Virus record (IMG/VR): IMGVR_UViG_3300046471_000128
Span: 43,510 to 107,509 of that record
Strand: one strand, 5' to 3'
Source of the DNA: a virus
Length of the DNA: 64,000 bases
The position numbers and the translations under genes were made by a program. Positions within the stretch are counted from its first letter, which is position 1. Every line of letters starts with the position of its first letter. Under the pieces are notes generated by a model. The model ran no database searches. It saw only the letters and a list, made by a program, of their open reading frames with translations, and was not told the origin of the DNA. Positions 20,208-53,386 of this stretch are shown here, piece after piece.

Positions 20208-20572
20208 GCTGGGTATGTCGGGTAGTGGCTATTGAGGCGGGAGAACCAGTCCCAGTAGCCGAGGTTGTCTTGCCAGAAGGCGCACAGGCCGTTTGCCGTG
20301 AGCGTGGTGAAGTCCTCTTCCGTGCTGGAGTTCTCCAGCCCGTAGACCCAATGGATCGCGTGCAGGCACTCGTGCAGGAAGGTGTTCGCGAGCTTCTGGG
20401 GCGTCATGCCGGGCTGCAGTCGGATGCGCTGGCCGATCGTGTTGCAGTGGCCGAACTCACGGTTGCCCTCGGCGTCGTGCTGGCTCATCAGCTCCACGAC
20501 GAACCAGTAGTTGCCTACGCGCACCGCGCGGGGCATGTCCTTGTAAGGATCAAAAACGGCGATATCAGTCAC
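20204..20572 (-). CDS. HExxH zinc metallopeptidase-like protein
   Basis: TFLHECLHAI...EE motif. Confidence 0.65.
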   Translation of the reverse strand: MTDIAVFDPYKDMPRAVRVGNYWFVVELMSQHDAEGNREFGHCNTIGQRIRLQPGMTPQKLANTFLHECLHAIHWVYGLENSSTEEDFTTLTANGLCAFWQDNLGYWDWFSRLNSHYPTYPA

Positions 20573-20579
20573 GGGTAAC

Positions 20580-21221: not shown

Positions 21222-21436
21222 GCGGCCTCCGGGTGTTCGAAGCGCACGCACGCGGCGGTCTTGTGGACCTTGAACCCGCCGATCCCGCAGCGCAGGTTCG
21301 TCTGGTTGACGTAGACGCTGCCACCGAAGGCGGCCTTAACCGTCACTTCCTCGAACTCGAAATGGCGGCAGCTGCCGCAGTTGTTCGGCGCGCGGCTGTA
21401 GTGCTGCGCGGCCTTGGCTTCGCTTTGTTTGCTCAT
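21218..21436 (-). CDS. Small Cys-rich protein
   Basis: CGSCRHF...RC.IGGF.V...A.C. Confidence 0.55.
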   Translation of the reverse strand: MSKQSEAKAAQHYSRAPNNCGSCRHFEFEEVTVKAAFGGSVYVNQTNLRCGIGGFKVHKTAACVRFEHPEAA

Positions 21437-21708
21437 GCTGCTTGCAGCTCCTTCTCTTCAATGGCTGGCTCAAGTGCGTCAGGAATGCACTCGGCAGGCA
21501 GCGGGGTTTGGATCTTGCGGAAAAACCGCACGACGGCGGCCTTGCGCTGGGAAAGCTTGTCGTCGAGGTCGTCATCCGGCTCGTATTCGTCGCCGTTGTC
21601 GCAGTTCTCGCAGATGGCTGGCTCCCGGTTGTGGAAGTAGCAGCTCTGGCACTCTGGGAAAAGGAACTCGGAGCGCGGGATGCGCGCAAAACCCGTCGGG
21701 CGTGTCAT
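21433..21708 (-). CDS. Small Zn-finger-like protein
   Basis: CQSC...CENC, start MTRPTG at 21708. Confidence 0.55.
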   Translation of the reverse strand: MTRPTGFARIPRSEFLFPECQSCYFHNREPAICENCDNGDEYEPDDDLDDKLSQRKAAVVRFFRKIQTPLPAECIPDALEPAIEEKELQAA

Positions 21709-22067
21709 ACCGTGATCCAGTCGTCCGCGAGCATGTCGAGGTTGGTCGGAAACCAGCCCGACCAGCTGGCGCCGTCCGTCTCGCACTTGAACAACCCATC
21801 GACGATCGCCAGTGTGTAGGTGCGCGTGAAGCCCGTTTTCCAGCCCACGCGAGAGACGCGCAGGCCCGTCTTCAATGCCTCCAGCGCCATGCCGAAGCTC
21901 ATGCCGACGGCCGGCCGGTAGGCTTTCTCGAAGACCGCCTTGGGTGACCAGCTGATGTAGCCGTCCTCGTAGCGAACTGAGTAGCCCTCTTCGGCGTTGC
22001 CCGTGACCGGGTTGATCGCGGCGAGGGGCTCCGCGTGGATGATCTTGCTGCCGATGTATCGGTTCAT
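21705..22067 (-). CDS. DUF2829 / Tad2-like cyclic-nucleotide sponge with N-terminal extension
   Basis: MSFGMALEALKTGLRVSRVGW...W.P...DMLADDW is the DUF2829 signature. Confidence 0.75.
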   Translation of the reverse strand: MNRYIGSKIIHAEPLAAINPVTGNAEEGYSVRYEDGYISWSPKAVFEKAYRPAVGMSFGMALEALKTGLRVSRVGWKTGFTRTYTLAIVDGLFKCETDGASWSGWFPTNLDMLADDWITV

Positions 22068-22726
22068 TTGTATGCCTTCATGAGATCGACGAAGGCGTTG
22101 CCCGCGTTCGTCATGGAGTCTTCGGTGGTGAACCCTTGCTCGCGCTGGCGGCGCTCGATCGCGGAGGTGATCCAGGCGACGTCTTCGACCGGCACCTTGA
22201 AGCGCATCACCTGATGGGTGGCGCCCAGGCCCGCGCCGGACAGATCAGGCATTTCGGTCTGATCCAGCTGGTCAAGCTCGTCGATGTCTATACTTGACGC
22301 TGCCAGAATCGTTTCGAGTTCGGTGTCGGTGTAAGGCATGAACAGGGCGATGTCTTCGGTGCCGAGTTCCTTGAGCAAGCGCGAGAGCGCAAGCGTGTCG
22401 TCTTCGCCGTAGCGGCCGTTGTCGACCAGGCCGATCTCCTTCGCCGTGGTGTCCGAGATCGGTCCCACATCGACGATGGGCACTTCGGTGTAGCCAAGGC
22501 GCTGCGCGGCTTCCCAGCGGTGCTGACCGCCGAGGATCTGGTAACCGGTGCCGTCTGGGTGCGGGCGCACGACGATCGGCTTGTAAACGCCGAACCGCTT
22601 GATACTGATGTCCAACTTGTCCTCATTTTCGGGAGCGACATAGTTGGTGTTCCAAGGGTTCGGGCGCAGACTTGCAACTGACACCTTGCCCTGTGCGGGG
22701 TAGATCGAGGATGGCGAAGCAGCCAT
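22064..22726 (-). CDS. ParB/Srx-domain protein 2
   Basis: LRPNPWNTN...SIKRFG..KPIVVR...ILGGQHRWEAA...DN. Confidence 0.85.
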   Translation of the reverse strand: MAASPSSIYPAQGKVSVASLRPNPWNTNYVAPENEDKLDISIKRFGVYKPIVVRPHPDGTGYQILGGQHRWEAAQRLGYTEVPIVDVGPISDTTAKEIGLVDNGRYGEDDTLALSRLLKELGTEDIALFMPYTDTELETILAASSIDIDELDQLDQTEMPDLSGAGLGATHQVMRFKVPVEDVAWITSAIERRQREQGFTTEDSMTNAGNAFVDLMKAYK

Positions 22727-26893: not shown

Positions 26894-27262
26894 TCGACGG
26901 GCACGGACGGTAGCTGCGGGGCGCGCCAGCGCCCCTAGCGCCGTCTGCCTGGGCCCGCAGGGCCGCGAGGGTGCGATTCCCCATGTGGACACACTCAAAG
27001 CCCCACAGCCCCTTCCCCACGTCCCACCTTCCACTTTCCCGCTGCCCCACTCCCCGCTTTGCCACGGCCCTATAAGGATCTCGGATTCGCCGAGGCCCGG
27101 CTGTATAAGGATCGGGTCTGGATCGGAAAAAAATTTCCAACGAGGCCCCACCACTATTGCGCGCCGTTCTAAGACCACCGACGTGCCGCATGGTCGGTGA
27201 TCAGTGGGCGGGGCGGGGTCGGTGCGTCCGCCCATCGTTAGATGGGCGAACTATGACGATAG

Positions 27263-27451
27263 TTAGGTTAGCGTATCAATCGACAGACTGAACCGGTCGA
27301 TTGCATGCGCGTGCATATCGCTCTGTTCGTAAGCGCGCGAATCGTAGCGCGTGGGTTGAAACACTGCATCGAATGCATCGAAGGTTTCACTGTGCGCACG
27401 TTCCCCGTGCTGGGCAATGCGGGCAAAATGAGCGCTCTGCAAGGTTTTCAT
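27263..27451 (-). CDS. Small hypothetical protein in the KCCD-free zone
   Basis: 62 aa ORF, co-oriented with neighbours. Confidence 0.35.
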   Translation of the reverse strand: MKTLQSAHFARIAQHGERAHSETFDAFDAVFQPTRYDSRAYEQSDMHAHAIDRFSLSIDTLT

Positions 27452-27515
27452 GGTCTGGTAGGTCGTCAGGTAGCAGGTAGAGAACGCGGGCGCTTTGTGC
27501 GCCCGCTATGCGCGT

Positions 27516-27698
27516 TTAGCGCGACGCGTTCAAGTGAGCACGGGCACGCGCGCGACGCATGCGGGCACGCGTTGCCCGTGTGCGGTGCGGTGCGTTATTG
27601 ATGGGTTCGGGCAATGCGTGAAAAGCGAGCACGACAGCAAGCGCGACCAGCAAGACAGACAGCAAGGGTAAAAGGTATTGATTCATCGTTAGCATCAA
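27516..27698 (-). CDS. Small membrane peptide in the KCCD-free zone
   Basis: Hydrophobic helix followed by Arg-rich tail. Confidence 0.4.
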   Translation of the reverse strand: MMLTMNQYLLPLLSVLLVALAVVLAFHALPEPINNAPHRTRATRARMRRARARAHLNASR

Positions 27699-27752
27699 TC
27701 GAAGGGTTAGAAACCCGGGCGCACCGTGCGCCCGGTAAAAGTCACAGGTTCC

Positions 27753-28424
27753 TTATTCTTTCTTCGCGCCCTTTACGAGTGAGAGGGTATCGCTAGAAGC
27801 TTGTTCTACCATCTTTGCAATTGCAGCGACAAAGGGAGATTTAGCATTCACTTCGAGCACTGCGCTTTTACCCTTAACCTTAACCATTTGACCCATATTG
27901 AGATACTTACAGAAACCATTCACACCGAACGAGCGTGAAACCTTGGTTTCTTCGCTAGTAACACCGACGCCCGGTATCACGCGACGCAGTTTCGAAACCA
28001 GCGACAGGTCTTTAACGATATCGCTAGTCGATTCGTCTCCCTTGCCCGTGTTAGCAAAGTAAAGCGCTTCGCGCGACACTGCGCCCGCATGCACTGCGCT
28101 AAGCAGGGAAAGCGCGGTAACACCGTCAAGCTTGCTGTAGTCTTTCGCATGCAGACAAGCGAAAAATTCTGATACGCGCTTGCAAGCTTTCACGCCCATG
28201 TTATCTGCAATGGTTGCAAGAAACGTTGTTTCGTCAATGCGCGCTTTTTTCAGCATGCCCGAAGCGAAAACACAAAGCGCGTCATCCCAATATGCGAGAG
28301 CGGTTTTGATATCGTCTTGCAAGTGAGCGCTGCCCGTCTTTGTGTTGTAACGATCGTTTGCGCGGTTGAATGCGATTGAAACATTTTCGAGCGTGAAAAT
28401 CGTTTCTTTAACTTGTGCGTTCAT
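27753..28424 (-). CDS. Candidate immediate-early protein, 223 aa (start MNAQVK)
   Basis: AAAGGT SD, canonical sigma70 promoter, downstream hairpin 27715-27736, unusual codon usage. Confidence 0.8.
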   Translation of the reverse strand: MNAQVKETIFTLENVSIAFNRANDRYNTKTGSAHLQDDIKTALAYWDDALCVFASGMLKKARIDETTFLATIADNMGVKACKRVSEFFACLHAKDYSKLDGVTALSLLSAVHAGAVSREALYFANTGKGDESTSDIVKDLSLVSKLRRVIPGVGVTSEETKVSRSFGVNGFCKYLNMGQMVKVKGKSAVLEVNAKSPFVAAIAKMVEQASSDTLSLVKGAKKE

Positions 28425-28484
28425 TTTGATTACCTTTGATTGAGTGTTGGTCTGTTTGCCCGGTCTCGCTGAACCGGTAGAGAA

Positions 28485-28513
28485 ATAGTAACCGCACACC
28501 TAGCCCGGTGCAA
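28485..28513 (-). promoter_or_regulatory. sigma70-type promoter TTGCAC-N17-TACTAT
   Basis: Read on - strand about 60 bp upstream of the ATG at 28424. Confidence 0.7.
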
Positions 28514-28750
28514 TAAGTATGCGAAAAAAAACGTATGGCTTTTCTATTCGCGTTGTTTTTCAGAGGAGTGCTTGAAAGGTGTTTTTGACTGTGCTATTTG
28601 CGCGGGCGCACCTGCATGCATGCTCAATAGGGAGCGCGCATATCGAATGCTTAGATAGGGATACGATGTATCGTGGATCTGATTAATCGATCATAGGGAG
28701 TTCGAACTATGTGATTGTTCGTGGACCCGATTAACCGGTCGTTAGCGGAG

Positions 28751-28817
28751 CGACGCTTCGTGGCCCGACGCTTCGTGGCCCGATGCTTCGTGGAGCGATG
28801 ATTCGTGGAACCGATGA
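28751..28817 (+). repeat. 15-bp tandem array CGAYGMTTCGTGGMS (about 4.5 units; degenerate copies near 28664 and 28712)
   Basis: cgacgcttcgtggcc twice, cgatgcttcgtggag, cgatgattcgtggaac, cgatga. Confidence 0.9.
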
Positions 28818-29119
28818 CCACGGCGCCCAGCGGGCGCCGGTGCCCGAACCGCGCCATCCCTGCCCTGCCCGCAGCCGGTGCCGGTTTCTGCCAATCCGCC
28901 CTTACCTGGCCCGGGTTTTTCCAAAAATTGCCACGGATTTGAACGGAACCCGGGCGCCCGCCCCACAGCAAGCCACGGCACGCCATCCGAGCGCTTACGG
29001 GCACCCAGCCACGGCAGTGTAGAACGAAAAAAGGGCTGGCACCCGAAGGTGGCAGCCCAAAAGTCTTACGTATCACAGTAGGACTCACTCAGGTAAATCG
29101 AGGCGAAGCATACAGCAGG

Positions 29120-32826: not shown

Positions 32827-33474
32827 CTAGCGCGTGCGGCCCCATCCGAGCGCTGCTGGCCGGCTGTAGTCGGCGAACTTCACCTTGAGCCAATCCTTTG
32901 AGCGACCGCGCTGATACGGCGCGTCGAGTCGCTTGCCTACCATCCCTTCAAAGTCGTGCTGTTTCACCTGATCGAACACCCATGCCCCTGCCGAGACGAC
33001 TCCGGTCACGTAGACGAGCACGGCGGTGTTCTCGAATGAGTCGCGCAACAGCTCTTTTCGTTCGACGAGTGGCAGCTGCCTAATGTCGCGCTCACCATCG
33101 GCGAGCATGTCGAACACGTAGAGACGCGCCGGGTGCAGCTTCATGGCGGCGCGCACGCGTGTTGCGACCGATGTGCGGGCACGGATCTGCAGACGCTCGA
33201 ACGAGGACTGGCCGGTTGGCTCGTCGACCGTGAGCTCCGCATCCCACACGAAGTTGCCATACACGTTCTCGACCGCCGCGACCACATCAGGAAACGAGCG
33301 ATTCATGAGGTTGCCCTGCCGCGAGATCAGCTCGACCCGCGAGCCGACCTTGCGCACCAGACAGCGGAACCCGTCGTATTTAAGTTCGAACAGCCAATCC
33401 TCACGGGAAAACGGCGCGCGGTTGAGCGTGGCGAGCATCAGGTCGCCCGCGTCGATCAGCGGGATGGCACTCAC
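32827..33474 (-). CDS. ATP-dependent DNA ligase, adenylation domain only (LigD-like)
   Basis: ELKYDGFR, DAEL, YVFDML, EGMVGK, WLKVK. Confidence 0.85.
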   Translation of the reverse strand: MSAIPLIDAGDLMLATLNRAPFSREDWLFELKYDGFRCLVRKVGSRVELISRQGNLMNRSFPDVVAAVENVYGNFVWDAELTVDEPTGQSSFERLQIRARTSVATRVRAAMKLHPARLYVFDMLADGERDIRQLPLVERKELLRDSFENTAVLVYVTGVVSAGAWVFDQVKQHDFEGMVGKRLDAPYQRGRSKDWLKVKFADYSRPAALGWGRTR

Positions 33475-33742: not shown

Positions 33743-34042
33743 TTACCAGTCGTATTGCGGCAGGTCCGCGACCACGCTCTGATCACAGTCCATGCGCAAC
33801 CACTTGAGGTTGTGCCGGTTGCCCCACTCCATCACTTCGCGCAGGTCCGCCGGCAGGTTCAGTTCGTCGAGCAGGTCGCTCGGCTGCACCCAGAGGAACC
33901 AGCCGTGCTCATACGCGGCGACGATCGTCCACGGGCATTGAGCGTCGCCCTTGTCCAGTTGCTCCGCCGTCTCTCTCGTGACGTGGCACGTCGAGATCGC
34001 TGGGATGATGTCCACGTTGAAAATTTCTACGTTGCTGCTCAT
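33743..34042 (-). CDS. DUF5983-like protein
   Basis: STCH...YEHGWF...LP.DL...W...D.D...LP.YDW. Confidence 0.6.
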   Translation of the reverse strand: MSSNVEIFNVDIIPAISTCHVTRETAEQLDKGDAQCPWTIVAAYEHGWFLWVQPSDLLDELNLPADLREVMEWGNRHNLKWLRMDCDQSVVADLPQYDW

Positions 34043-34087
34043 GTGCTTCTCCAAGCTGCGCCCGGGCGCTCGGCCCGGGCTGTGGTG

Positions 34088-34603
34088 TTATTCGGGCAGG
34101 AGCTCGTCGCTCAGCATTTCGAGCAGCGTCTCGCTGTCATGGCACACCAGCGTGGTGATGTCGTCATCGACCGGCACGCCCGCGTCGCGCAGAATCTTGA
34201 GCACGGTTTGCGCGCGCGCAACGACGTCGGCATCGACCTCATCGTCATCGACGTGTCCGTCTTGCGTCTCGACCAGGCGACGCGCAAAGCACACGGCCCA
34301 CTCTTCGGGCGTGGCGCAGGTGTATTCCCACGGTGACGCACCTGCGGCGCCCATATCGCCCGACAGGTCGAAAACCCACTTGTGGTCAGGACCGCGCCCG
34401 ATGATGACCTTCGCGGCTGCGTAGACCATCGAGACGGACTCGACGCAGATCGCGTGTTTGTGGAACTGGTCGATCACGAACCCGTAGGCGTCGAGATACA
34501 GGTTGTCGAGCGTCTGGTTGGACTCTTGCACGAGCTGCTCGGCGGAGGGCTTGAACTCGGACGTGTCGACAGTCGCGAGGATTTCTTCGTAGGTGATGGA
34601 CAT
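34088..34603 (-). CDS. Acidic hypothetical early protein
   Basis: ORF directly downstream of class-II element 34638. Confidence 0.7.
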   Translation of the reverse strand: MSITYEEILATVDTSEFKPSAEQLVQESNQTLDNLYLDAYGFVIDQFHKHAICVESVSMVYAAAKVIIGRGPDHKWVFDLSGDMGAAGASPWEYTCATPEEWAVCFARRLVETQDGHVDDDEVDADVVARAQTVLKILRDAGVPVDDDITTLVCHDSETLLEMLSDELLPE

Positions 34604-34678
34604 GGTGTGTCTGGGTGGTTGTGGTTGCGATGAAGTCATTCTCCCGACCCGGGTGTGGCCCGGGCCCGGATCGGTTGA

Positions 34679-35071
34679 TCAGTGGGCGGACGTAAGCATT
34701 TCGGGAATGACCATCGGCAAGCTGGTCGAGCACGGCTCGTCGAGATTCAGAATGTCGAACGCTTCGGCGACAGGGCGGCCCGGGTGCGCGTAGGCGTTCA
34801 GCGTCGCGGTCACGCACGCTTCAAGGTGGTCGGCGTCACGGTAGTGCGGCGACACGCCCGCGTCGAAGGATTCGACGATCACCGTGTTCCCGTGCAGGAT
34901 CACCTTACCGACGCACGGGATCGGCCCGGTGTGGTCAGGATGCTCGAACTTCACGACCAGGACGACACCACCGTCGGCACGGGTGCGCAGACGGTAAAGG
35001 CGCGTGTGGTGCACGTTGCGGTAGGCGTGAGCATGGGCACGGCGCTGCTCGGGATTCAGGTTGAGGCTCAT
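34679..35071 (-). CDS. Hypothetical early protein (start MSLNLN)
   Basis: ORF downstream of class-II element 35103. Confidence 0.65.
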   Translation of the reverse strand: MSLNLNPEQRRAHAHAYRNVHHTRLYRLRTRADGGVVLVVKFEHPDHTGPIPCVGKVILHGNTVIVESFDAGVSPHYRDADHLEACVTATLNAYAHPGRPVAEAFDILNLDEPCSTSLPMVIPEMLTSAH

Positions 35072-35112
35072 GATGTTTCTCATGTGTCGTTTCGATAGAC
35101 ACAGTTTCCCGA

Positions 35113-35959
35113 TCACGCACTGGCGCGCTGTCGGATCGTTTGTGCGGTGTGCGGCACCGGGTAGCGGGCGACCAGCCACTCGGTGAACTGCTGTTGTTCG
35201 GCGAACCCCATCTCTGCTCGGACCGTTGCGTGCACATCGCACCAGAGCTTCGCCTGGTGGCCGATCCAGTAGACATAGGGCCGCGTGTGGTGCGTGCCGT
35301 AGCGCGCCATGTCCTTCGCAAGCTGCTCCGCCGGCGACCCTGCCCCGTGCGCGATACAGTAGGCGGCGTAGCGCGGCGTCGCGCCCTTGAACGGGCCGCG
35401 CGCGATCACCAGCAGACCTCGATCTGTTCCACCTGCTCGGGGTCGATGAGGACATGGCGCCCGGTGGGTGCGAGATCGGCATCAGGGCGGGGCTCCCACA
35501 GCTCCAGCTCCAGCAGCAGCCCGCCTTTGTGCACGCGCATTTCGCCGCCGTAGACCGAGCCGTGCACCTGCCGACCCGAGCGCAGCCACAGGTTCACGGT
35601 GTAGCCGTTCCCGTCGTTCTTCTCGTCGTTCGCGTCAGCGAGCGCGTAGGCAACGATCGTGCGCCCGCTCATCGTTGGCTATCCTTCACCGCTGCGTCGA
35701 GCTCGCGCACGGCGGCCGCCAGCCCGCTGCTGCCCTCTTCTATCGCGCCCACGACCTTAATCGCGGCGGCGCGCAGGTTGTCCAGTTTGTCGCCCTGCTT
35801 GTTCATCTTCAGGACCGCATCGAACGGTGCTTCGGAAAGCTGCGCTTGGATGCCCTGATTGTTGAACTCGTTCGAGAGGAACGAGAACATGTCGAATTCC
35901 CGGTCCTGCCCGTAGTTCGTGTCGGCGGGGCGAATGAGGATGGTGTGAATCTTGGGCAT
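35113..35959 (-). CDS. Three coupled small hypothetical genes (35669-35959, 35406-35672, 35113-35409)
   Basis: ATGA/GTGA overlaps; class-II element 35989 upstream. Confidence 0.65.
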
Positions 35960-36049: not shown

Positions 36050-36562
36050 TTATTGCGCGCCCCCGAGCCCGATGGCGATCGAGATACGCTCGTCGGACAC
36101 CAGCGCGCGAATCCGCTTGGCGACCATATCGGGCGTGACGAGCGGAATGCCGTCGTCAAACATGACATCTGGCTCGTCATCGTATGATTCCGCGTTGAAC
36201 AGGTATTGAGCCCATGAGTCATTCAGACCGAAGAAGTTCTCGATGGCGGCCCAGCCCTCACGGCCCTCGTAAAATGGCTGCGCGTGCCGCGCGCCCCAGA
36301 CCGGAACGACCAGCTTGAGCCCTTGGGATTGGAACTCGGGCATCAAGGCGGCGTGCCCGCACGCGCACGCGGCGGCACCACACTGCACCTTGACGGGATC
36401 GACCACGATGGACTTGGCACCACCGAGCAGCTGGACAACTTCTCCCGTGGAGGGCAGATCCGCAGGCGCTTTCAACCAGTGGTCGAGGTGGAATGCGGCG
36501 GGCGCTGCGAATGTCTGCTGCTCAAGCACAGTGGCGAGCAGCTCAAGGCGTTCGATGTTCAT
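36050..36562 (-). CDS. Hypothetical protein of the CGxxAC family (paralog of 48061-48468)
   Basis: LDHW...CGAAACACG...P.FQ.QGL...FFG...LF...KRIR. Confidence 0.7.
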   Translation of the reverse strand: MNIERLELLATVLEQQTFAAPAAFHLDHWLKAPADLPSTGEVVQLLGGAKSIVVDPVKVQCGAAACACGHAALMPEFQSQGLKLVVPVWGARHAQPFYEGREGWAAIENFFGLNDSWAQYLFNAESYDDEPDVMFDDGIPLVTPDMVAKRIRALVSDERISIAIGLGGAQ

Positions 36563-36590: not shown

Positions 36591-37832
36591 TCAATTGTCG
36601 TGATCGTCTGCTGGCGTGTGCACGTCGGTGCGTGGATGGTTTTCGAAAATCTGCTGCGGCGTGCCGCGGTAGTCGTCGAAGCGGCTAATCTCGCGACGGC
36701 AGTCCGAGCAGTAGAAGGCGCGCATCGGGCGGTTCCACCACTTCACGTCCTCACCGCGCGTCTCACATGCCGTGACGTTGCACTTGCCGCCGAACTGGCC
36801 CTTGCCGGTCTGATCGATGTGCCCATACGGATCGTCGGGCAGCTCGCGCGGCGCACGGAGAACGTCCGCGACCGCCTGGATCTGTTCCCGCGACGGCATG
36901 CGGCCGCGCGCACCGGGATAGACGCGATTCAAGGACACGCGCTGCGTCGTGTTCAGGGACGGTGCCGTCTTCATGAGACGGCGTTCTTTCTTGGTCAGGT
37001 GCATCGAGCGCTCCATCCCCGCCCGTCGAATCCGAGCGAGTCGTCAAAGTAGTTATCGTCCACGAAGCGCACAGCGGCGAACCACTGCGCGTCCGATTCG
37101 AGGTGGACCGTGTTGCCGAAGTCATCGACCGTCGTGCCGCTTAGCGCGATGGCGAACGGCATGGGTCGTGCGGAATTGAAGTGAATCAGGCGCATGGCGC
37201 GCTCCAGTTGATGTTGGAGTAGCCCTCGCCGAACATCGCGACCAGGCGGTCGTGTTGCTCTTCGTCGAGCGGCAGCTTCCAGCGCATCACCGCCGTCAGA
37301 TAAATCTCCTGCGCGTTCTCGGTCATTTCCTCGAAGCACGAACCCATGCTCGGGCGGAACTGGATTCGATGGAGCTGCACGCCGCACGACTCGCGGCGGC
37401 GCTGATTGCTCGGGCGCTCCCGCAACCAGCCGCCCATGTTGTAGTCCGACTCGAGGATCGAGTAGGCTTCGCAGATGTCAAAGCGATCCCAAGTCGCCAT
37501 CAGAGCGTCTCCCACTTCGTGTCGCCAACCTTCCGATACTGCATGGTCGTGCAGCCCGCGTGCCCTTCGGCCCAATCGAGCGGCTCGAACGCCGTTTCTT
37601 GAATAGCGTCGTGCAGGTCAACACAGCGGCCCGTGTAGTAGAGCTCGGCGTCGTCATCGAGCAACTGGAACTCGAAGTTGAAGCGCTCGCTGTGGAGCGT
37701 GATGAATTGGTCAACCGCGTCGCGGCGCCGCAGCGGATCGCGGATCGCAACCAGCGGCGAGTTGCGGTTGTCGTAGCGGCCCGTGCCCACCTGGCCGTCG
37801 GAGATGTGGTCCTTTGTGATGATCCACTGCAT
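36591..37832 (-). CDS. Four coupled small hypothetical genes (37500-37832, 37186-37500, 36995-37195, 36591-37016; the last has Cys pairs)
   Basis: Overlapping start and stop codons; class-II element 37866 upstream. Confidence 0.6.
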
Positions 37833-39544: not shown

Positions 39545-39910
39545 GGTCGTTTCTCTGTGTGGTTGCGATGAATTCATTTTCCCGAGCGCCCGTAGGCGCA
39601 TCGGTGGACTTATTTCGCATGGGTTTTACTGGCTGGTTGCGGTGAAGTAAATTGTGCTCGCGCCCCTTTGGCAAGCTAAGTTACCGCTTATTTATCCATT
39701 ATAGCCACGCGGAAAGATCGGGCGCGTGAAAACGTGCAAGATGTTGCGCGATTTGTGCAACTTTTTACCGGGGGTGCCGAACCCTTGCCTACCCGTAGAT
39801 AGACGGTCGGTGCTGTGGGAAGGGTAATTTTGGGCGCGGTGGCCCGCCCGAGGGCGCCGTGGCAGCGCGCGGGCACGAACAAAGCGGGCCGAAGCCCGCT
39901 TCGCTGACGG

Positions 39911-40996
39911 TCATTCAGCCGCCGTCGTTTCTTCCGCCGTCACTTCTTCGACGACCGGCTCTTCAACCGTCGGCTCTTCAACCGTCGGCTCTTCAACCGT
40001 CGGCTCGACGGTCGGTTCTTCCGCAACCGGTTCTTCGGGCAGCGGTTCGCTTGCCGGGTTCATCGCTTGCTGCGCCATCATGAGGAACAGCGAGTTCGGG
40101 TTGGGAACAAATTCGCCCTTGCCCGTCTGGACGATCATCTTCGTCTTCTCCATCACCGTCACCGTGTTGCGGCCCATCGCGCGCGCAGCGCTCGGGCTAT
40201 ACGGCTTGCTCAGCAGGTTCTTGTGGAGGTTCCCGTTGTCGCCCGTCTGGATCTTCCCGTCGGCGGCGAGCACGTCGAGGGCACGCTTGAAAATCTCGTT
40301 CGGCTTGTTCGTTTTGCCCGACAACCAGTCCATCAGGAGCGAGGCGCGATTCTTGACCTTGACGGACATCGCGTCGATCACCGCGAGCGTCTCGTCCTGC
40401 TTCGCTTTCAGCGCATCGCCCTCCAGCCCAGCGTCAGCGATCTCCAGCACGAGGTAGTCACCGAGCGACGCACCCAGGCGCGCTACGATGCGATCCGTCT
40501 TGTTCTGGTAGTGCGTGCGCGGGGCGCGGACCTTCTTCGCTGCTGCGGCGGTGGGCTCTGCTGCGCTCATTTCGGTCGCAAGCGCTTCTTCGGCGAGCAG
40601 ACGCTCTTTCTCGGCTTCTTCGTCCGTGACGCCCTCGTGGGCAGGCGCATCAGCGGGCACCAGCGCGTAGGCTTCTTGCACTTCGATGTTGGCGAGCGCA
40701 GCTTCGAGCGCTTCCCCGTGCGCTTCTTCGGACGGGAGTGCGGACTCGGCTGCGACTTCGAGCAACGGCGGCACGTCGAGAACTTCGACCGTCCCGGAGT
40801 CGAGCAGGACTTCTTCGCTCGATTCGACCAGTGCGGCGACCGACGCTTCGAACGTCTCGACCGGCGCTGCGCCCATGTTCGGCTCGCCCAGCACATCGAG
40901 GAGCGCTGCGAGTTCGGGGTCCATCGGGGCTGCTTCGCTCGCGCCCAGCATGTTGATGTTGAGGACGGCTGCGACTGCGTTTTTCTTGGCGTTCAT
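39911..40996 (-). CDS. 361-aa early protein with acidic N-terminal half, folded C-domain and EEPTV-repeat tail (start MNAKKN)
   Basis: CAGGAGAG SD, three upstream promoter-like elements, hairpin 39882-39901; 15-bp coding repeat near 39956-40005. Confidence 0.8.
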   Translation of the reverse strand: MNAKKNAVAAVLNINMLGASEAAPMDPELAALLDVLGEPNMGAAPVETFEASVAALVESSEEVLLDSGTVEVLDVPPLLEVAAESALPSEEAHGEALEAALANIEVQEAYALVPADAPAHEGVTDEEAEKERLLAEEALATEMSAAEPTAAAAKKVRAPRTHYQNKTDRIVARLGASLGDYLVLEIADAGLEGDALKAKQDETLAVIDAMSVKVKNRASLLMDWLSGKTNKPNEIFKRALDVLAADGKIQTGDNGNLHKNLLSKPYSPSAARAMGRNTVTVMEKTKMIVQTGKGEFVPNPNSLFLMMAQQAMNPASEPLPEEPVAEEPTVEPTVEEPTVEEPTVEEPVVEEVTAEETTAAE

Positions 40997-41294
40997 GATG
41001 CTCTCCTGAGTGAGATTGGGTAACGCGTTCATCGCGTCAGATTCAATTTTGTCGATCAGGTAGAGGCGCGTATCGCATGAGTCAGGATCGTTTCTCTGCC
41101 CGGTCTGGGTGTCGTGCACTGCATCGACTAGAGAAATTCTAGGGAGCGGGTTGTGGCGTAAATCCTGTGCGTTTGGATATGTGCTTGCTAGAAAGAAAGG
41201 TGCGCGCGCCCGCGCGAATAGCACCGGGCTTCTGGCTCGGGCCCGGAAAATAGAAAGGGCGCCCGAAGGCGCCCTGTCATGGGGTTGGAGGCTA

Positions 41295-42019
41295 TCACCA
41301 GCTACCCGCCAATTCGCTGCCAATCTCCGCGATCCGTGCCCGCGACTTGCGGTCGTCCACTTCCTCACTTGAGTTCTGGTAAAGGGCTTCGGCGACGTTC
41401 GAACGGATCACGGCCGTCACCCCGGGCATCTCCGCGCACACGAAGCGCTCGGCGGCGTAGTGACTCAGTTCTCGCTCCTCTGCGGCGAGCCATGCGAAGA
41501 AGGCGTCCCGCATCGTCGCTGCCAATTCATCGCACTCCGTCATCACCAGCTCCCCGCCAGGTCTGCAATGTCCTCGTCCATCCCGCGTGTGTCGGGCACA
41601 TCGGGCGGGGGTGGCACGAGAATGTTGCCCTTCTCGACGAACTGGCGCCCGCTCTCACCCCTGCTTGAGGGCAGCCATTCGCAGTCGGCGTAGCGCACGA
41701 GGATGTCCTCGTAGGCGTCGATCGCCTCCTGCTCGGTGCGAAACTCGCGCGTCGCCTGCGGATCGGGTGAGCGCCGCGGTGCGTCGAGCGGACGGCCCTC
41801 GCCATCGGTCGTGACGATGTTCTCGACGTCCAGACGGTAGAGCTTCCAGTGCTGCTTCGGAATCGTTTTGGCGTTCTTCTGGAAGCCAAGCCACTCGCAG
41901 GTGACGCGGATCTTTTCGTTCTCGAACTCCCGGAAGAACCGGTAGGCGTGATTTTTTTGCAGCGCTACCCACGCTGCCTGCGTGATCGAGCCGCCATCTC
42001 TGTTGACGAATGCGAGCAT
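41295..42019 (-). CDS. Two coupled hypothetical genes (41543-42019, 41295-41546), both ending LAGSW
   Basis: SD before 42019, 4-nt overlap, terminator 41255-41275. Confidence 0.65.
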
Positions 42020-48557: not shown

Positions 48558-50294
48558 TTACGTGAGTGCGAGTTGGTGCTCGGCGGCGATAGGCGAACCC
48601 ACCTGCTCACCTTGCACCGGCTCCCCTGCGAGAGCAGCATCCAGCGCAGCGTCTTCCTCGGGCGTCATCGGTGCGGCGGCCGACTTCGCACGCTTCGGGA
48701 GGATCTCGCGCAGCGCGTCGGCGTTGTCCACGATGAAGCAGGCGACTTGGTTCACCGTCACCGCGTCGAGATACTGCATGCTGTCCTCGCTGTTCGGCAG
48801 CTGTGCAGCAACGAGCTCCATGACCTTGCGCACGCGGTCCAGGTCAGCCTGGTGCTTCATCGCGTCAACCTTGCTCTCGAAGGTTTGGCCGTCGCTGGTT
48901 TCGTATTGGGCCTTGACGATGCGCTTGATGAGGTTTGCCATGATGTGTAGATCCTTATAGGGAGTGGAAAATCGGGTCCGCGCTGGCGCGGATTTCTCGG
49001 TTTGGGTTTTACAGCTTCACGCGGCCGGTTTCACGCAGGGTGTCGGCCAGTTGCAGCGTGGACATTTCGATCAGCAGCACGTCGCGGTTGCGGGCCGGGT
49101 CGAACTTGCGGAGCGAACTGGGCGCAGCGCCGTTCACGCGTTCGAGCGCTTCGACGAGCTCCTCGCGCAGGTGCAGCAGCGTGCGGGCTTCGGCGAGCAC
49201 CGGGTGCGGCGCGAACATGCAGGAGATGCTGTCCGTCTCCATCACGCCCGGAATGTATTCGACGATGTGGCCGGGGAAGTGCTTGCTCTCAAAGAGGATC
49301 ACCCCGCCGCCCCGGCGGGATTGCGCGAAGATCGCCTTCTTCTGTTCGTCGGTGCGGTTCTGAAGCTCCCCCAGGATGGTGTAGAGCTTGTCCTCGTCGC
49401 GAATGATCTGGATCTCGTTCGCACGGGCGACGAGATTGGCGACGTCAAGACGAATGGCTGAAATGGTGGTGCTCATGTTCCCTCAAAGGTTGTTAAGTTT
49501 CTCGTTACTAATCATTATAGTAACGAGAAAAGATCGGCGATCAGAACTGCTGCTTGATCGAATCCGCGAGCTTGTCGTAAGCGCGCAGGCGCGTGAGGAC
49601 GTGGTAGATCGAACGATCCGAAGTGCTGCTGTCCTTCATGCCGGCGATCAGCTCGTCGGCGTTCTCAGCCCACTGGAACTCCCCGCCGTGCGTGACGGTG
49701 AGAATCGACTGGTTGATTCCGCCGTAGAAGTGCACGCTCGGCTTCAGGAACTCGGGCGACAGCGTGAGAGTGCCGACGAACCCGTCATCGGGTGCTTGTG
49801 CGCCGCTCGGGGTGAGCGGCGGCACGTATTGACCGCTTTCCATCAGGTTCTCCTCAGAGGGCGATAGCGCCCGGTTGATCACGGAATTTCTTCGCGGTGG
49901 TCAGGAACAGGCGCAGCGCGGACGCGGAGGAGTCGTCCTCGACGCGGGTTTCCTTCGACACCAGCGCGACGCCCGGCTTCTTCAGGGTCGTCTCGACCGT
50001 CAGGCTGCCGACGAGCCACCGCACGACGACGACCACCTCGCCGATCACCGTGACCGAGCGCTGGACCTCGCTCACCCCGCCCAGATACTCCTTGCGGGCC
50101 GCGCTGATGATCTCCATCGACTCTTTGCTCACCAGGCCCGCCACACCGCCCCACAGCCCTTCGAGGGTCTGGTGGTAGGCGTAGCTGGTGATCTTGCCGG
50201 CGCGCACCGCCAAAAACGCGCGCTCGATCTCCTCGACGACCTTGCGTTCGAGCTCCTCGCGAATGGTCGGCGGCTCGCCGTTGAGCGTGCTCAT
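48558..50294 (-). CDS. Four hypothetical genes (48558-48941, 49009-49476, 49541-49882, 49854-50294)
   Basis: Co-oriented ORFs with typical codon usage. Confidence 0.6.
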
Positions 50295-50923
50295 GCTGCG
50301 ACGGGAACGATGGCGAGGGCGGGCGCCGGCTTCGCGGGCTTGATTACGCCCACCTTGATGCCGGCGTCGCGCAGCGCCGCGTTCAGGTCATCGACCGGCA
50401 GCGCGGGCAGCATGGGCTTCGGGGCAGTCAGATCGGACGGGAGGAAGCCTTCGACCTCGGGCCACATTTCGATCAGCTTGTTGAGCGAGGACGTCGCATA
50501 GACGGTGAGCCGGATGCTTTCCGCAAGCTCACCGCGCTTCTTGTCCAGGGCGGCGCGCTCATCGTCGAGCGTGCGATAGGCGAGATACACGTCGCGGTCA
50601 TAGACCGACAAATAGCCGAGACTTTCGCGTGAGAAGAATGGCAGCGGCTTGGCTACCTCGACGCTTCGCTCGGTCTTGAGATGACTTTTCGTGTCCACGT
50701 CATAGAAGCGCAGCGTCAGGCTGTTGGTCAGACTGAGAAACTCTTCGGGCGCCTGACGCGCTGCCTTCTCCTTCGCGGCGGGCACCACCGAGCGGTAGCA
50801 GTCCATCGCGATCTTGGCGAGGCGCTTCTTGATGTCCGCATACTCTTTTTCGAAAGCGCCGCGCAGTGCATTGGAAATGATCTGGTCGCGGGCGTGGTTG
50901 GTCAGCTTAACGTTCTTCGTCAT
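50291..50923 (-). CDS. Nmad5-family (nucleotide-modification-associated domain 5) protein
   Basis: KLTN..RDQII.NAL ... L..LIE.WPE...LP...LPA...DDLNA.L. Confidence 0.7.
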   Translation of the reverse strand: MTKNVKLTNHARDQIISNALRGAFEKEYADIKKRLAKIAMDCYRSVVPAAKEKAARQAPEEFLSLTNSLTLRFYDVDTKSHLKTERSVEVAKPLPFFSRESLGYLSVYDRDVYLAYRTLDDERAALDKKRGELAESIRLTVYATSSLNKLIEMWPEVEGFLPSDLTAPKPMLPALPVDDLNAALRDAGIKVGVIKPAKPAPALAIVPVAA

Positions 50924-51029
50924 GGAGAAATCCTCTAATTGTTTGATTTGAAAGGGACAACCGACACTTAGAAGTGTAGTCGTCCCTGTTTGGCAATTTG
51001 TAACCGGTGACTTATCGTAACCGGTTTTC

Positions 51030-51656
51030 CTAGTGCAGCACAAGGCCCGCTTCGTGCATCGACTGCATGGCGGCGTTGTGACGCACCGCGGACTTGCTCA
51101 CCCCGTGCGCCACCGCTGCGACGCGCTGCTTGAGATCCGTGCAGCTGCGCGGCATGCTGAAGTGGTCGCACTTGAGCGCCCCGCCCGCCATCAGGCCCAG
51201 CATCAGCGCGTTTAAATGCTCGACATACGCTGGGTTCGCCGGCGCCTTCCCTTCCGCGTCGACCAGCTGAATGCCCGGCTGCACGAGGATCAACGTGGTG
51301 AAGTGCCGGTTGGCGCATTCGTAGCAGTCGTGCATGTAGCGTTGCAAATCCGCGACAAGCGGCATGGGCACGTTTTCGCGCGTCACGTCGGCGAGCGTGT
51401 AGCCCAGCAGGTCGATCGGCGTGCGGTCGGTGATGAACTGCATGCCGCTCTTCTCGTAGAGCGTGTTCACGTCCTTGAGGATCTCCCGCTGGATCAGGAG
51501 GCGGGTTGCGAAGTCGTAGTCCTTCTTCGGGTCGAAGCCGAGGCGCTCGAAGGTCGCCGAAGCACCGGTCGCCACATACTTGACGCCCGAGTGCTCCGAA
51601 AACGCCCGTGCGAGGGTCGATTTGCCGGATCGATGCGAACCGCACAGGCCGAGCAT
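51030..51656 (-). CDS. P-loop nucleotide kinase-like protein
   Basis: GSHRSGKSTL, ITDRTPID. Confidence 0.75.
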   Translation of the reverse strand: MLGLCGSHRSGKSTLARAFSEHSGVKYVATGASATFERLGFDPKKDYDFATRLLIQREILKDVNTLYEKSGMQFITDRTPIDLLGYTLADVTRENVPMPLVADLQRYMHDCYECANRHFTTLILVQPGIQLVDAEGKAPANPAYVEHLNALMLGLMAGGALKCDHFSMPRSCTDLKQRVAAVAHGVSKSAVRHNAAMQSMHEAGLVLH

Positions 51657-52324
51657 TACGCTGCTACCTGTTCAGCGCCGGCTTCTAGGAGCGTGCGCTC
51701 GGCGGCGACGTCACGCTGCACCGCGGCGTTCGGATCGAACGCGCCCGCCTGGTAGCGGCCCGCCTTCTTGTCCTTCAGCTTCTTGATGTTGGTGAAATTG
51801 CACTGCTCGCGGGTGTAGCCGAGCGCGTCGAGCGCGATCTCGCCATACCAGGAAGCGTCGCCCTGTTCTTCCAAAGCGTTCACCTTGTCGACCGGCTGGC
51901 CGAAGAACGTCGGGATCAGCGCGGCGACAAACTCCGTCGACTCGGTGAACTGACCGAGCGCCGCGTGCAAGAGCCGCACGTCCACGCCCTGCAGCGACAA
52001 CGCTTCGCGCGCTTCCTTCTCGATGCCGGGGAAGAAGTCGGCGTCGCGCTGGTCACGGTAGCGGCCGGTCGCGAGCGGGAACGTCAGATCCTTCATGATC
52101 CCGGGGATCGCCTGCAGAGCTTGGCCCGTGATCTGCGGGTCGAGGTCCTTGCCGTAGAACACGGCGCGCTTGACCTGATCGAGCAGGTTGCCGGCCTGGA
52201 CCGCGAGGTTCAGTGCCATCACGAGCGTGGCCGGGCCGAAGTTGATCGCGTCGGGCTTCGATTCCGTCGAGAGGACTTCGGTGCGGTAGGTGGCGTTGTC
52301 CATCGTGTTTTGTGCTTGCGTCAT
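51656..52324 (-). CDS. MazG-like NTP pyrophosphohydrolase
   Basis: LLHAALG..TE..E...N..EE.GD..WY...NI.KL. Confidence 0.8.
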   Translation of the reverse strand: MTQAQNTMDNATYRTEVLSTESKPDAINFGPATLVMALNLAVQAGNLLDQVKRAVFYGKDLDPQITGQALQAIPGIMKDLTFPLATGRYRDQRDADFFPGIEKEAREALSLQGVDVRLLHAALGQFTESTEFVAALIPTFFGQPVDKVNALEEQGDASWYGEIALDALGYTREQCNFTNIKKLKDKKAGRYQAGAFDPNAAVQRDVAAERTLLEAGAEQVAA

Positions 52325-52375
52325 GGTTCGTTACTCCTTGGTTTGGGTGGTCGATAAGTGTTCAATTACTTATCA

Positions 52376-53386
52376 TTATAGTGAGGCAAAAGGTTCAGTC
52401 AGACGTGAACTGCGACGGAGCGGACCTTTCTTCGCAACCGCCTCTGCTTCAGCCTGCTTCTTCGCGCGCTCGATGCGCAGCTCCACGTCGCCGCGAAACT
52501 GGTGCCAGCCGACGAAGTTCTTGTGCGTGTCCGTGCCGTTCTTGAGCGGCGCGGCGATGTGCTCGGTCGGACTGGCGTGCAGCGGTTCGGCGCCCACCAG
52601 GCGTTCGTAGAGCCCCATGTCCTTCTCGGGGTTCGGCGTATCACCGTCATGCGTCAGATACGACACGCGGGCATTACGGGCCGTCGAGAGGGCTTGCAGC
52701 ACGTCCAGACGGTAGAGCTTGCGCTCGGTGTCGAGCACATACGGCAGGTGCCACGCATAAGCGTCGCTCCAGTCGCCACCGCGCAGCACGGGGTCGGACT
52801 GTTCCATCGCTGCCTTCATGGTCGCGGCCAGGTCTTGAATTTCCGGCTGGGCGTCAGGGTGATTGCGCAACTGGAAGAAGTTCTCCCACTCCGTCGCGGT
52901 CACGATCACGCTGATGTATTGGAACGGCTCGAGGATTCGGTTGACCAGTTGTTTGTGGTAGCCGGCCGCGTTCATTGCTTCGGCCACTTCGGCCGCGTTA
53001 TGTGCCGCCTCTACCCATGCTTCCTGGATCGTGAACTCCTGGCTGAAGCCATCGAATAAGTTGTCGGTCGGCGCGCCAACGTTCGCATACTGGAACAGCG
53101 TAACCGGTGCGTCGTGCTGCTCGTTCGCCTGCATGCCGGGCTGGTTCTTTCCCCAATGGATCGGACCCGCCGGGTCGTTGCGCACCTGCTCGATCATTTT
53201 GGCGACGGGGATCGCACGCGAGGAGCTCGCGTTTCGACTGAGCATGCGGTGCGTGAGGAACTCGGCGTGGATCGCACGCCAGTAGCGCAGCTCCAGCGTC
53301 GTGATGCGCTTCCGGTTGGTGATGCCGTTCGCAATGCTGTCGGCGATCACGCGCACCCGACAGCCTGGTCCTTGCAGTTCGATCAT
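52376..53386 (-). CDS. thyX: Flavin-dependent thymidylate synthase
   Basis: EFLTHRMLSRNASSSR motif, FF.LR....AQ.EI, HASP.EH. Confidence 0.85.
   Translation of the reverse strand: MIELQGPGCRVRVIADSIANGITNRKRITTLELRYWRAIHAEFLTHRMLSRNASSSRAIPVAKMIEQVRNDPAGPIHWGKNQPGMQANEQHDAPVTLFQYANVGAPTDNLFDGFSQEFTIQEAWVEAAHNAAEVAEAMNAAGYHKQLVNRILEPFQYISVIVTATEWENFFQLRNHPDAQPEIQDLAATMKAAMEQSDPVLRGGDWSDAYAWHLPYVLDTERKLYRLDVLQALSTARNARVSYLTHDGDTPNPEKDMGLYERLVGAEPLHASPTEHIAAPLKNGTDTHKNFVGWHQFRGDVELRIERAKKQAEAEAVAKKGPLRRSSRLTEPFASL

What the first reader, a model, noticed from the sequence alone, without database searches (positions are those of the whole stretch)
40078..41307. Second, strand-specific purge: all 16 GCC on the template strand of gene 39911-40996 are GCCC
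Seen: between the GCCA at 40074 and the GCCA at 41308 the + strand has 16 GCC trinucleotides and every one is followed by C. The reverse word (CGGC, TGGC, AGGC) and TCCR remain common. The zone spans most of the gene and its three tandem promoter-like elements (41046, 41136, 41215). Inference: the harmful mark lies on the GCCD-containing strand and matters when that strand is the transcription template. That fits a polymerase-blocking modification better than double-stranded restriction avoidance, and marks this gene as the next one expressed.
Basis: partly seen in the sequence, partly recalled or inferred. Interest (0 to 1): 0.75.

Follow-up and report, generated by a model that had tools for sequence, protein, structure and literature searches.

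The report
Strand-specific word-free phage early genes
An early regulatory gene of a Burkholderia-type phage-plasmid has been respelled so that one four-letter DNA word never occurs on the strand that RNA polymerase copies; the pattern is conserved in relatives, is unexplained, and implies an unidentified factor that reads this word in one orientation.

Summary
On the + strand, 40074-41308 has 16 GCC, all GCCC. This GCCD-free gap of 1234 bp compares with a mean gap of 46 bp.

In the whole 107.5-kb genome only three such zones exist: 27185-28836, which is also purged on the other strand, 33966-35175, and this one. All lie over minus-strand genes, so the mRNA-like strand lacks HGGC.

Against synonymous-codon shuffles the gene 39911-40996 has 5 HGGC where 27 are expected (z about -7), all five in its C-terminal repeat tail. 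HGGA is 10 against 24. The reverse words are at normal levels.

The five orthologues in four related virus records show the same one-sided depletion (z -5 to -8). They reach it by varied substitutions, which points to selection rather than chance, codon usage or one type of mutation.

The exact word is KCCD/HGGM. A conserved early-promoter family also carries it, always in the sense orientation.

The agent is unknown. My best reading (0.4) is a phage-specified mark or bound reader at KCCD that obstructs transcription when it lies on the template strand.

This scan had already noted the both-strand island on other genomes. The one-strand zones were not among the notes returned to me.

The parts
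40074..41308 (+). Zone Z3. The + strand (the transcription template) has no GCCD; its 16 GCC are all GCCC.
39911..40996 (-). Gene of 361 aa (phrog_3932, no Pfam match). It has acidic disordered N- and C-terminal parts and a winged-helix-like domain at about residues 160-318. Sense HGGC is 5 against 27 expected.
41046..41067 (-). Proximal promoter-like element, GCCT-N8-TCGACAAAAT.
   Evidence: 9 hits in the window, all on the - strand, 0.48 expected
41136..41157 (-). Middle promoter-like element, GCCA-N8-TCCCTAGAAT.
41215..41250 (-). Distal variant element, TTCC-N8-GCCA-N9-TGCTATTCG.
   Evidence: read; does not match the strict pattern
41255..41285 (-). Terminator-like hairpin plus T run that closes the upstream gene 41295-41543. 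It is spelled with GGGC only.
   Evidence: sequence
39883..39905 (-). Terminator-like hairpin after the stop codon of the gene.
   Evidence: sequence
33966..35175 (+). Zone Z2. The + strand is GCCD-free for 1209 bp. It covers genes 34679-35071 and 34088-34603 and the first ~76 nt of the DUF5983 gene 33743-34042, and it starts at promoter element 35103-35136.
27143..28836 (.). Zone Z1. KCCD/HGGM is absent from both strands. It holds a sigma70-like promoter (TTGCAC-17-TACTAT, about 28505-28475), a 223-aa winged-helix-like protein gene (27753-28424), a terminator and two small ORFs. A 15-bp-period array of sense-oriented KCCA words lies upstream.
   Evidence: (family D13)
34638..34671 (-). A copy of the conserved promoter family [A/G]TCC-N8-KCCD-N8-TCGGGAnAAT-N6-ATCGMAAC. 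Further copies start at 35136, 36022, 37899, 39609, 45118 and 48547 on the - strand.

Best explanation
The zone is one of three transcription units of an SSU5-like phage-plasmid from which selection has removed the 4-nt word KCCD (here chiefly GCCD) on the strand that RNA polymerase copies. This is equivalent to removing HGGM from the mRNA-like strand.

Shown: each single copy of the word in that orientation is counter-selected in these units, and this holds across diverged relatives.

Inferred: the word is the target of a phage-specified, sequence-reading agent acting on DNA. The agent could be a covalent mark or nick written at KCCD, or a protein seated on it. In either case it obstructs an elongating polymerase only when it is on the template-strand side.

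Also inferred: the units that must be read through while the agent is present have been cleared of it. Two of them encode winged-helix-like proteins behind strong or tandem early promoters.

Which of the two physical forms applies, covalent mark or bound polar roadblock, is not resolved.
For: (1) Strength and specificity. No GCCD occurs in 1234 bp against about 25 expected. Only six words (GCCA/G/T and TCCA/G/T) and their complements vanish, while all other NCCN and NGGN words are at normal levels.

(2) Selection at silent and replacement sites. The codon-shuffle z is about -7. GGC glycine codons are kept only after G-ending codons. Orthologues differ at all four positions of the word, by both synonymous and non-synonymous changes.

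(3) Conservation. All five orthologues of this gene are depleted on the sense strand only (z -5.0 to -8.1). It has the lowest z of all genes listed for G002 (z -8.4) and G001 (z -6.7). The Z2 orthologue in G003 has a 1202-bp gap that ends at the same place in the DUF5983 gene.

(4) The level is DNA rather than RNA. In Z1 the word and its reverse complement are both absent, in five records and in phages nickie and RHEph10. A word together with its reverse complement is the symmetry of double-stranded DNA.

(5) The agent is not host-specific. The same word is purged in phages of Burkholderia-type hosts, Pseudomonas and Rhizobium. SSU5 has a syntenic island purged of a different GG word, MGGB/VCCK. 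That is how a phage-borne specificity would drift.

(6) The purge is anchored at promoters. Over 34 promoter elements, sense HGGC falls to 0.32 and 0.88 per 100 nt in the first 200 nt, against 2.16 strand-wide, while sense GCCD stays at 2.0-2.8. The same word builds the two upstream boxes of that promoter family.

(7) Precedent. Phage-type base modifications act differently on transcription depending on whether they sit in the template or the non-template strand (PMC11550810). Strand-asymmetric modification at a short degenerate motif exists on a Burkholderia plasmid (PMC7736820).
Against: - No writer, nickase or reader was identified. TGT and QueC are absent, and the terminase-side operon matched no known DNA-modifying family.
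- No gene is shared only by the island-bearing phages.
- Most phage genes carry the word at normal density on their template strand, so they must be transcribed in spite of it.
- The purge ends abruptly inside genes. Five sites remain in the tail of this gene, and Z2 ends about 76 nt into a gene. A strict block would truncate those mRNAs.
- Z1 is purged on the non-template strand too, which a purely template-side obstacle does not require.
- nickie and RHEph10 lack the promoter family yet purge the same word. The link between promoter and word may therefore be clade-specific.
- There are no expression data.
Confidence: 0.4

Rival explanations
1. RNA-level avoidance. HGGM in the transcript is the target of an endoribonuclease or an RNA-binding repressor, in the manner of T4 RegB at GGAG or of MazF-type mRNA interferases. 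The few mRNAs that must survive are spelled without it.
For: The purge always sits on the mRNA-like strand, in every record and orientation examined. It is frame-independent. There is a mild sense-strand HGGM deficit across many genes of the clade, with a median z of -1.1 to -1.4. The Shine-Dalgarno sequence of the Z1 gene is AAGGT, not AGGA.
Against: Z1 also lacks the reverse complement KCCD on the sense strand. An RNA reader gives no reason for that unless the island is also transcribed antisense. The sense-HGGC-free stretch of Z1 runs 368 bp upstream of its promoter. Five sites remain in the 3' end of the very mRNA that would need protection. No RNase gene was found among the proteins scanned.
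Confidence: 0.2
2. Virion DNA carries a bulky covalent modification on the GCCD-containing strand that blocks host RNA polymerase. Genes read directly from injected DNA are therefore cleared on their template strand, and this gene is the next one expressed after the both-strand island.
For: All the evidence for the best explanation applies. In addition, an Nmad5 'nucleotide modification associated' domain protein sits beside a P-loop protein and a ThyX-like protein at 50291-53356. The both-strand island has a host-type promoter, whereas the one-strand zones use the phage promoter family.
Against: Nmad5 is only predicted to modify DNA (PMC11846954), and the word has no invariant T. No deazaguanine genes are present. 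The sites retained in the tail of the gene argue against a hard block. The timing of expression is untested.
Confidence: 0.2
3. Orientation purity for a DNA-binding regulator. KCCD is the half-site of a phage regulator, possibly one of the winged-helix-like proteins encoded in Z1 and Z3, which assembles head-to-tail on promoter boxes and on the 15-bp array. Inverted copies near its nucleation sites would cause faulty complexes, loops or head-on contacts with polymerase.
For: Two conserved promoter boxes 11 bp apart are KCCD words, always in the sense orientation, in 34 elements of four records. An array of sense-oriented KCCA words with a 15-bp period lies directly upstream of Z1, and dense clusters of sense KCCD words lie at the same place in the relatives' Z1 loci; no inverted copy occurs for about 350 bp. 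The Z1 and Z3 proteins both give winged-helix matches with overlapping hit lists (Z 5-7).
Against: A regulator that needs paired sites should not make every single 4-mer deleterious over 1.2 kb. nickie and RHEph10 lack this promoter family. The fold matches are weak (Z below 8). The two proteins are not demonstrably related (hhalign probability under 1%).
Confidence: 0.15
4. No function. The pattern is chance, local composition, codon usage, or a context-specific mutational process such as a deaminase acting on transcribed DNA.
For: None beyond the fact that long gaps for other words arise from local composition elsewhere in the genome.
Against: Codon-shuffle z is about -7. Neighbouring words such as CGGG, CGGT and GGGC are at normal levels. 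GC content in the zone is 62-65%, as in the rest of the genome. The pattern recurs in five orthologues at 56-64% protein identity. The substitutions that remove the word are of every kind, not one transition.
Confidence: 0.02

Closest known systems
Restriction-site and short-motif avoidance in phage genomes
   Same: A short word is removed by selection, largely through synonymous respelling.
   Different: Here the avoidance is on one strand only and is confined to 1.2-kb units rather than the whole genome. The word is not a palindrome. The same word is purged in phages of three bacterial classes, so a host restriction enzyme is unlikely.
Orientation-biased (polar) motifs: EcoP15I sites all in one orientation in T7, Chi, FtsK KOPS (from my own knowledge)
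   Same: One orientation of an asymmetric word is tolerated or favoured and the other is excluded.
   Different: Those motifs are 6-8 nt long and act genome-wide or relative to replication. Here a degenerate 4-mer is excluded locally, starting at promoters.
Context-specific phage DNA modification (dPreQ0 at GA and GGC in phage CAjan, from my own knowledge) and strand-asymmetric SAY methylation by M.BceJIII/M.EcoGIX (PMC7736820)
   Same: Short degenerate target words at a density of one per few tens of bases. For M.BceJIII/M.EcoGIX the mark lies on one strand only.
   Different: No homologous enzyme was found here. The existence of any mark is inferred, not observed.
Nt.CviPII, the chlorovirus nicking enzyme that cuts at CCD (PMC3017599, listed; its specificity is from my own knowledge)
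   Same: A strand-specific enzyme whose site is CC followed by a non-C base. This is nearly the same word.
   Different: No nickase gene was identified. The 5' K requirement is additional. A nick every 31 bp on both strands of most of the genome would not be viable without protection.
T4 RegB (GGAG) and MazF-type mRNA interferases with motif-free resistant mRNAs (from my own knowledge)
   Same: A short G-rich word is absent from selected transcripts.
   Different: The reverse complement is also purged in Z1, and the purge reaches upstream of that promoter. Both argue for DNA.
The both-strand KCCD/HGGM-free island noted earlier in this scan (e1-6016134 on this window; e1-6006725 and e1-6006741 on another genome)
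   Same: Same word, same phage family. I verified it here and in nickie and RHEph10.
   Different: The present zone is purged on one strand only, lies 11 kb away from the island, uses the phage promoter family and keeps the sense-oriented word at a normal or raised level.

Membership tests
Restriction-driven site avoidance | The word is avoided on both strands (a double-stranded target). | tested here: not met
   In the zone, + strand GCCD is 0 while + strand HGGC is at its normal level. In the gene, sense GCCD is 25 against 22 expected.
Restriction-driven site avoidance | Avoidance extends over the whole genome exposed to the enzyme. | tested here: not met
   There are 2320 GCCD and 2325 HGGC sites genome-wide and only three long gaps.
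Restriction-driven site avoidance | The word tracks the host's restriction enzymes. | tested here: not met
   The same word is purged in phages of Pseudomonas, Rhizobium and Burkholderia-type hosts.
7-deazaguanine (DpdA-type) DNA modification | A TGT-like transglycosylase and preQ0 synthesis genes are present in the phage. | tested here: not met
   PF01702 and PF06508 give no match in the complete 107.5-kb record, while the control genomes do match.
Phage base hypermodification cluster (Nmad-associated) | A modification gene cluster is present, and modified bases occur at the word. | tested here: inconclusive
   An Nmad5 domain protein (E 1e-21) lies next to an AAA_28 P-loop protein and a ThyX-like protein. 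The chemistry cannot be tested with these tools.
Polar motifs of the Chi/KOPS type | A long (5-8 nt) word skewed genome-wide with respect to replication or DNA ends. | tested here: not met
   The word is a degenerate 4-mer. There is no genome-wide skew (2320 against 2325 sites) and the effect is local.
T5-like first-step-transfer (pre-early) region | The region lies at the DNA end that enters first and is bounded by an injection stop signal. | not testable with these tools
   The record is reported only as having direct terminal repeats. The physical ends and the order of entry are unknown.
Clade-specific early promoter family (TCC-N8-KCCD-N8-TCGGGAnAAT) | The conserved architecture lies upstream of the gene on the sense strand. 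| tested here: met
   Elements 41046 and 41136 match KCCD-N8-TCNNNANAAT (9 hits, all on the - strand, 0.48 expected). The family is conserved in G001 to G003. Promoter activity itself has not been tested.
Winged-helix DNA-binding proteins (product of 39911-40996) | A winged helix-turn-helix fold. | tested here: inconclusive
   The AlphaFold model has pLDDT of about 85-94 over most of residues 160-310. The best VIA matches are ArsR/SmtB, MarR, PadR and TubR types at Z 6-7, below the level at which a match can be trusted. Foldseek E-values are 0.1 or worse.

The most novel reading that the evidence does not exclude
A widespread family of about 110-kb phages and phage-plasmids carries an undescribed, phage-encoded system that writes or reads a 4-nt word in a strand-resolved way. 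The word is KCCD here and a different GG word in SSU5. The absence of the word programmes transcription. A both-strand word-free cassette would be readable at once. One-strand, template-cleared operons such as this one would be readable next. Word-bearing promoters and genes would come later. Gene timing would then be encoded by where a ubiquitous word is missing.
Probability: 0.3. Interest if true: 0.9.

Novelty: new variant of a known kind. Interest (0 to 1): 0.72.

Why it matters
Motif avoidance in phages is normally read as escape from double-strand restriction. This case differs in four ways. It is confined to a few operons. It is limited to the template strand. It is enforced at every single 4-mer. 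It is conserved across relatives, with a related but different word in SSU5.

That combination implies a sequence-reading activity for which no gene has been assigned, in a phage-plasmid family that includes clinically common enterobacterial elements. The activity could be a mark, a nick or a polar DNA-bound protein.

If the agent is found, it would show how a phage separates expression classes by the absence of a word. It would also give a simple rule for spotting first-expressed or insulated genes in uncultured phages.

Tried and rejected
**Chance, composition and codon usage.** Rejected by codon shuffles, by the normal frequency of neighbouring words and by the normal GC content.

**Single-type mutational burn-out (deaminase).** Rejected because orthologues remove the word by changes at all four positions.

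**Constant zone length of about 1.13 kb from the promoter** (1125 and 1131 nt here, 1115 nt in G003). I set this aside as a physical ruler. The orthologous Z3 zones measure 1157 to 1551 bp.

**Z1 and Z3 proteins as paralogues.** BLASTP gave E 0.05 and hhalign a probability below 1%. Not shown, although both give similar weak winged-helix hits.

There is only a sub-threshold Sigma70_r2 match (16 bits) at genome 8489-8677, and Pfam finds nothing for that protein. PF00940 gave no match, but its control matched nowhere either, so that search is uninformative.

**A gene shared only by island-bearing phages.** None was found by tblastn.

**A gene present in G000, G001 and G003 but absent from G002.** G002 at first seemed to lack the purge. 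This lead became moot because the G002 orthologue is strongly depleted too (z -8.4).

**Searches with no match.**
- The zone DNA and both proteins in the phage and plasmid collections.
- The genome-contig scan.
- A PDB profile search.
- Foldseek for both models, with no match at E of 0.001 or better.
- The ESM Atlas, which gave only unnamed clusters.

Full report
**Observation.** Between GCCA at 40074 and GCCA at 41308 the + strand holds 16 GCC trinucleotides, and each is followed by C. In the window as a whole only 31% of + strand GCC are GCCC.

The window is the right-hand 64 kb of a complete 107,509-bp virus record with direct terminal repeats. In that genome GCCD occurs 2320 times on the + strand, with a mean gap of 46 bp. 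Only three gaps exceed 460 bp:
- 27185-28836 (zone Z1, 1651 bp)
- 40074-41308 (zone Z3, 1234 bp)
- 33966-35175 (zone Z2, 1209 bp)

On the other strand only Z1 is purged (27143-28536). GC content inside Z3 is 62-65%, as elsewhere. The other NGGN and NCCN words are at normal frequency.

**The exact word and its orientation.** All genes under the three zones are on the minus strand. A + strand GCCD therefore corresponds to HGGC on the mRNA-like strand.

Word tables for the zones here and in relatives show that six words and their complements vanish. These are GCCA, GCCG, GCCT, TCCA, TCCG and TCCT, that is KCCD/HGGM. GCCC, TCCC, ACCN and CCCN, and GGGC, GGGA, NGGG and NGGT, stay at normal levels.
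- In Z1 both orientations are absent.
- In Z2 and Z3 sense HGGC is zero and sense HGGA is reduced.
- Sense GCCD and TCCD are at normal levels in Z2 and Z3.

Against synonymous-codon shuffles the Z3 gene (39911-40996) gives these counts:

| Sense-strand word | Observed | Expected | z |
|---|---|---|---|
| HGGC | 5 | 27.4 | about -7 |
| HGGA | 10 | 24.4 | -5 |
| GCCD | 25 | 22 | about +1 |

The five HGGC all lie in the last 165 nt, in the repetitive acidic tail. The sequence shows how the purge is achieved. GGC glycine codons occur only after codons ending in G, and alanine codons are preceded by codons that do not end in HG.

**Anatomy.** The gene encodes a 361-aa protein with no Pfam family and one PHROG of unknown function. 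Its model has disordered acidic ends and a confident domain at about 160-318. That domain resembles winged-helix DNA binders, but only at Z 6-7.

Upstream lie the terminator of the preceding gene and promoter-like elements. A family with the architecture [A/G]TCC-N8-KCCD-N8-TCGGGAnAAT-N6-ATCGMAAC occurs six times in strong form, plus weaker copies. All are on the minus strand between 30 and 49 kb.

The core pattern KCCD-N8-TCNNNANAAT has 9 hits in the window, all on the minus strand, against 0.48 expected. Two lie at 41046 and 41136, in front of this gene.

Z2 starts at element 35103-35136. Z1 has a sigma70-like promoter, with a 15-bp-period array of sense-oriented KCCA words upstream.

Over 34 elements in four records, sense HGGC falls to 0.32 and then 0.88 per 100 nt in the first 200 transcribed nucleotides. 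The strand-wide value is 2.16. Sense GCCD does not fall.

**Relatives.** The portal protein places the phage among SSU5-like phage-plasmids. Homologues of the Z3 and Z1 proteins are found in Paraburkholderia and Burkholderia records and in metagenomes.

Three related virus records were fetched whole: G001, G002 and G003. G003 holds two distinct related genomes.
- All five orthologues of the Z3 gene are depleted of sense HGGC (z -5.0 to -8.1) and sense HGGA (z -3.8 to -5.3). Sense GCCD is normal to enriched.
- Among all genes called in G002 and G001, the Z3 orthologue has the lowest z listed (HGGM z -8.4 and -6.7).
- In G003 the Z2 orthologue has a 1202-bp gap that starts at the orthologous promoter and ends at the same point inside the DUF5983 gene.
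- Where one orthologue has HGGC, the others differ at any of the four positions, by synonymous or replacement changes.

This is purifying selection against the word, not one mutational process.

**Wider family.** Following a lead from earlier notes of this scan, I checked cultured phages myself.
- Pseudomonas phage nickie has a both-strand KCCD/HGGM-free island at 103635-105102. It also has a sense-only HGGM-free stretch over the plus-strand genes gp023 and gp022.
- Rhizobium phage RHEph10 has a both-strand island at 98795-100115.
- Neither phage has the Burkholderia-clade promoter family.
- SSU5 has a syntenic island at 95224-96764. It covers a 216-aa protein and a small membrane peptide, next to annotated repressors. 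It is purged on both strands of a different GG word, MGGB/VCCK.

No protein is shared only by the island-bearing phages at tblastn sensitivity.

**Mechanism.** Two things are shown. Every single copy of KCCD on the template strand is counter-selected in these units, and the effect is anchored at promoters.

I infer that the level is DNA rather than RNA. In Z1 the word and its reverse complement are both excluded, and the exclusion runs about 370 bp upstream of that promoter.

My best reading (0.4) is an agent at KCCD that hinders the polymerase only when it sits on the template side. It could be a covalent mark or nick, or a bound protein acting as a polar roadblock. The units that must be read in its presence have been cleared.

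Precedents exist for strand-dependent effects of phage-type base modifications on transcription (PMC11550810) and for one-strand modification at a short degenerate motif (PMC7736820).

Against this reading:
- No writer or nickase was found. An Nmad5-domain gene is the only hint.
- Most genes tolerate the word on their template strand.
- The zones end inside genes.
- Z1 is also purged on the non-template strand.

**Limits.** 'Early', 'next expressed' and 'promoter' are inferences from sequence.

**Verdict.** It covers the exact word, a third zone, conservation in relatives and the promoter link. The pattern is a strand-resolved variant of motif avoidance, not among the notes returned to me, and it belongs to a larger word-free-island phenomenon that this scan has already noted on other genomes.

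Noticed in passing
Salmonella phage SSU5 NC_018843.1, 95224-96764 (loci L056, L071): A syntenic cassette (SSU5_118-120: a 216-aa protein plus a small membrane peptide, beside annotated repressors) is free of a different GG word, MGGB/VCCK, on both strands for about 1.4-1.5 kb.
   Followed up: partly
Stenotrophomonas phage BUCTxx99 OR529408.1, 29987-31583; Xanthomonas phage JGB6 OQ436456.1, 84274-85972: BUCTxx99 has a 1.6-kb stretch beside its terminase with no HAA(D) on the + strand. JGB6 has a 1.7-kb HGGT-free stretch. These may be lineage-specific counterparts of the island or composition effects. The other strand and the genes were not examined.
   Followed up: no
window 50291-53356: A cluster of an Nmad5 'nucleotide modification associated' domain protein, an AAA_28 P-loop protein, an unknown 222-aa protein and a ThyX-like protein, next to the ribonucleotide reductase small chain. 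It is a possible base-modification module.
   Followed up: partly
window 17524-22615: The operon upstream of the terminase gave thioredoxin, soluble ABC ATPase, SprT-like metallopeptidase (weak), two ParB_N proteins and a Tad2-like (Thoeris anti-defence 2-like) domain. Pfam gave no match for the 329-aa protein at 18176-19165.
   Followed up: partly
window 33743-34042 and 32827-33474: A DUF5983 protein, whose first ~76 nt lie in zone Z2, is followed downstream by a minimal ATP-dependent DNA ligase (215 aa).
   Followed up: no
window 28540-28840: A direct-repeat array with a 15-bp period (KCCACGAAGCRTCGS on the minus strand) lies just upstream of the Z1 promoter. Dense clusters of sense-oriented KCCD words lie at the same place in the Z1 loci of all the relatives.
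   Followed up: partly
G003 (IMG/VR record of 215,656 bp; loci L024-L034): The record classed as one virus with terminal repeats holds two different related genomes in tandem. Each has its own copy of the Z1 gene, the Z3 gene and other genes, and the two copies differ in identity to this genome.
   Followed up: partly
genome 13917-16060 (locus L005), outside the window: The plasmid maintenance module, a ParA/MipZ-like ATPase and a Rep3-type initiator, lies far from the word-free island. The island is therefore not the replicon.
   Followed up: partly
window 36050-36562: A 170-aa gene of unknown function behind promoter element 36594-36615 is also depleted of sense HGGC (2 against 9.2, z -4.3). 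It lies outside the three long zones.
   Followed up: no
window 39911-40075: The C-terminal tail of the Z3 protein is built of tandem 15-nt repeats encoding EEPTV-like units. It is the only part of the gene that carries the avoided word.
   Followed up: partly
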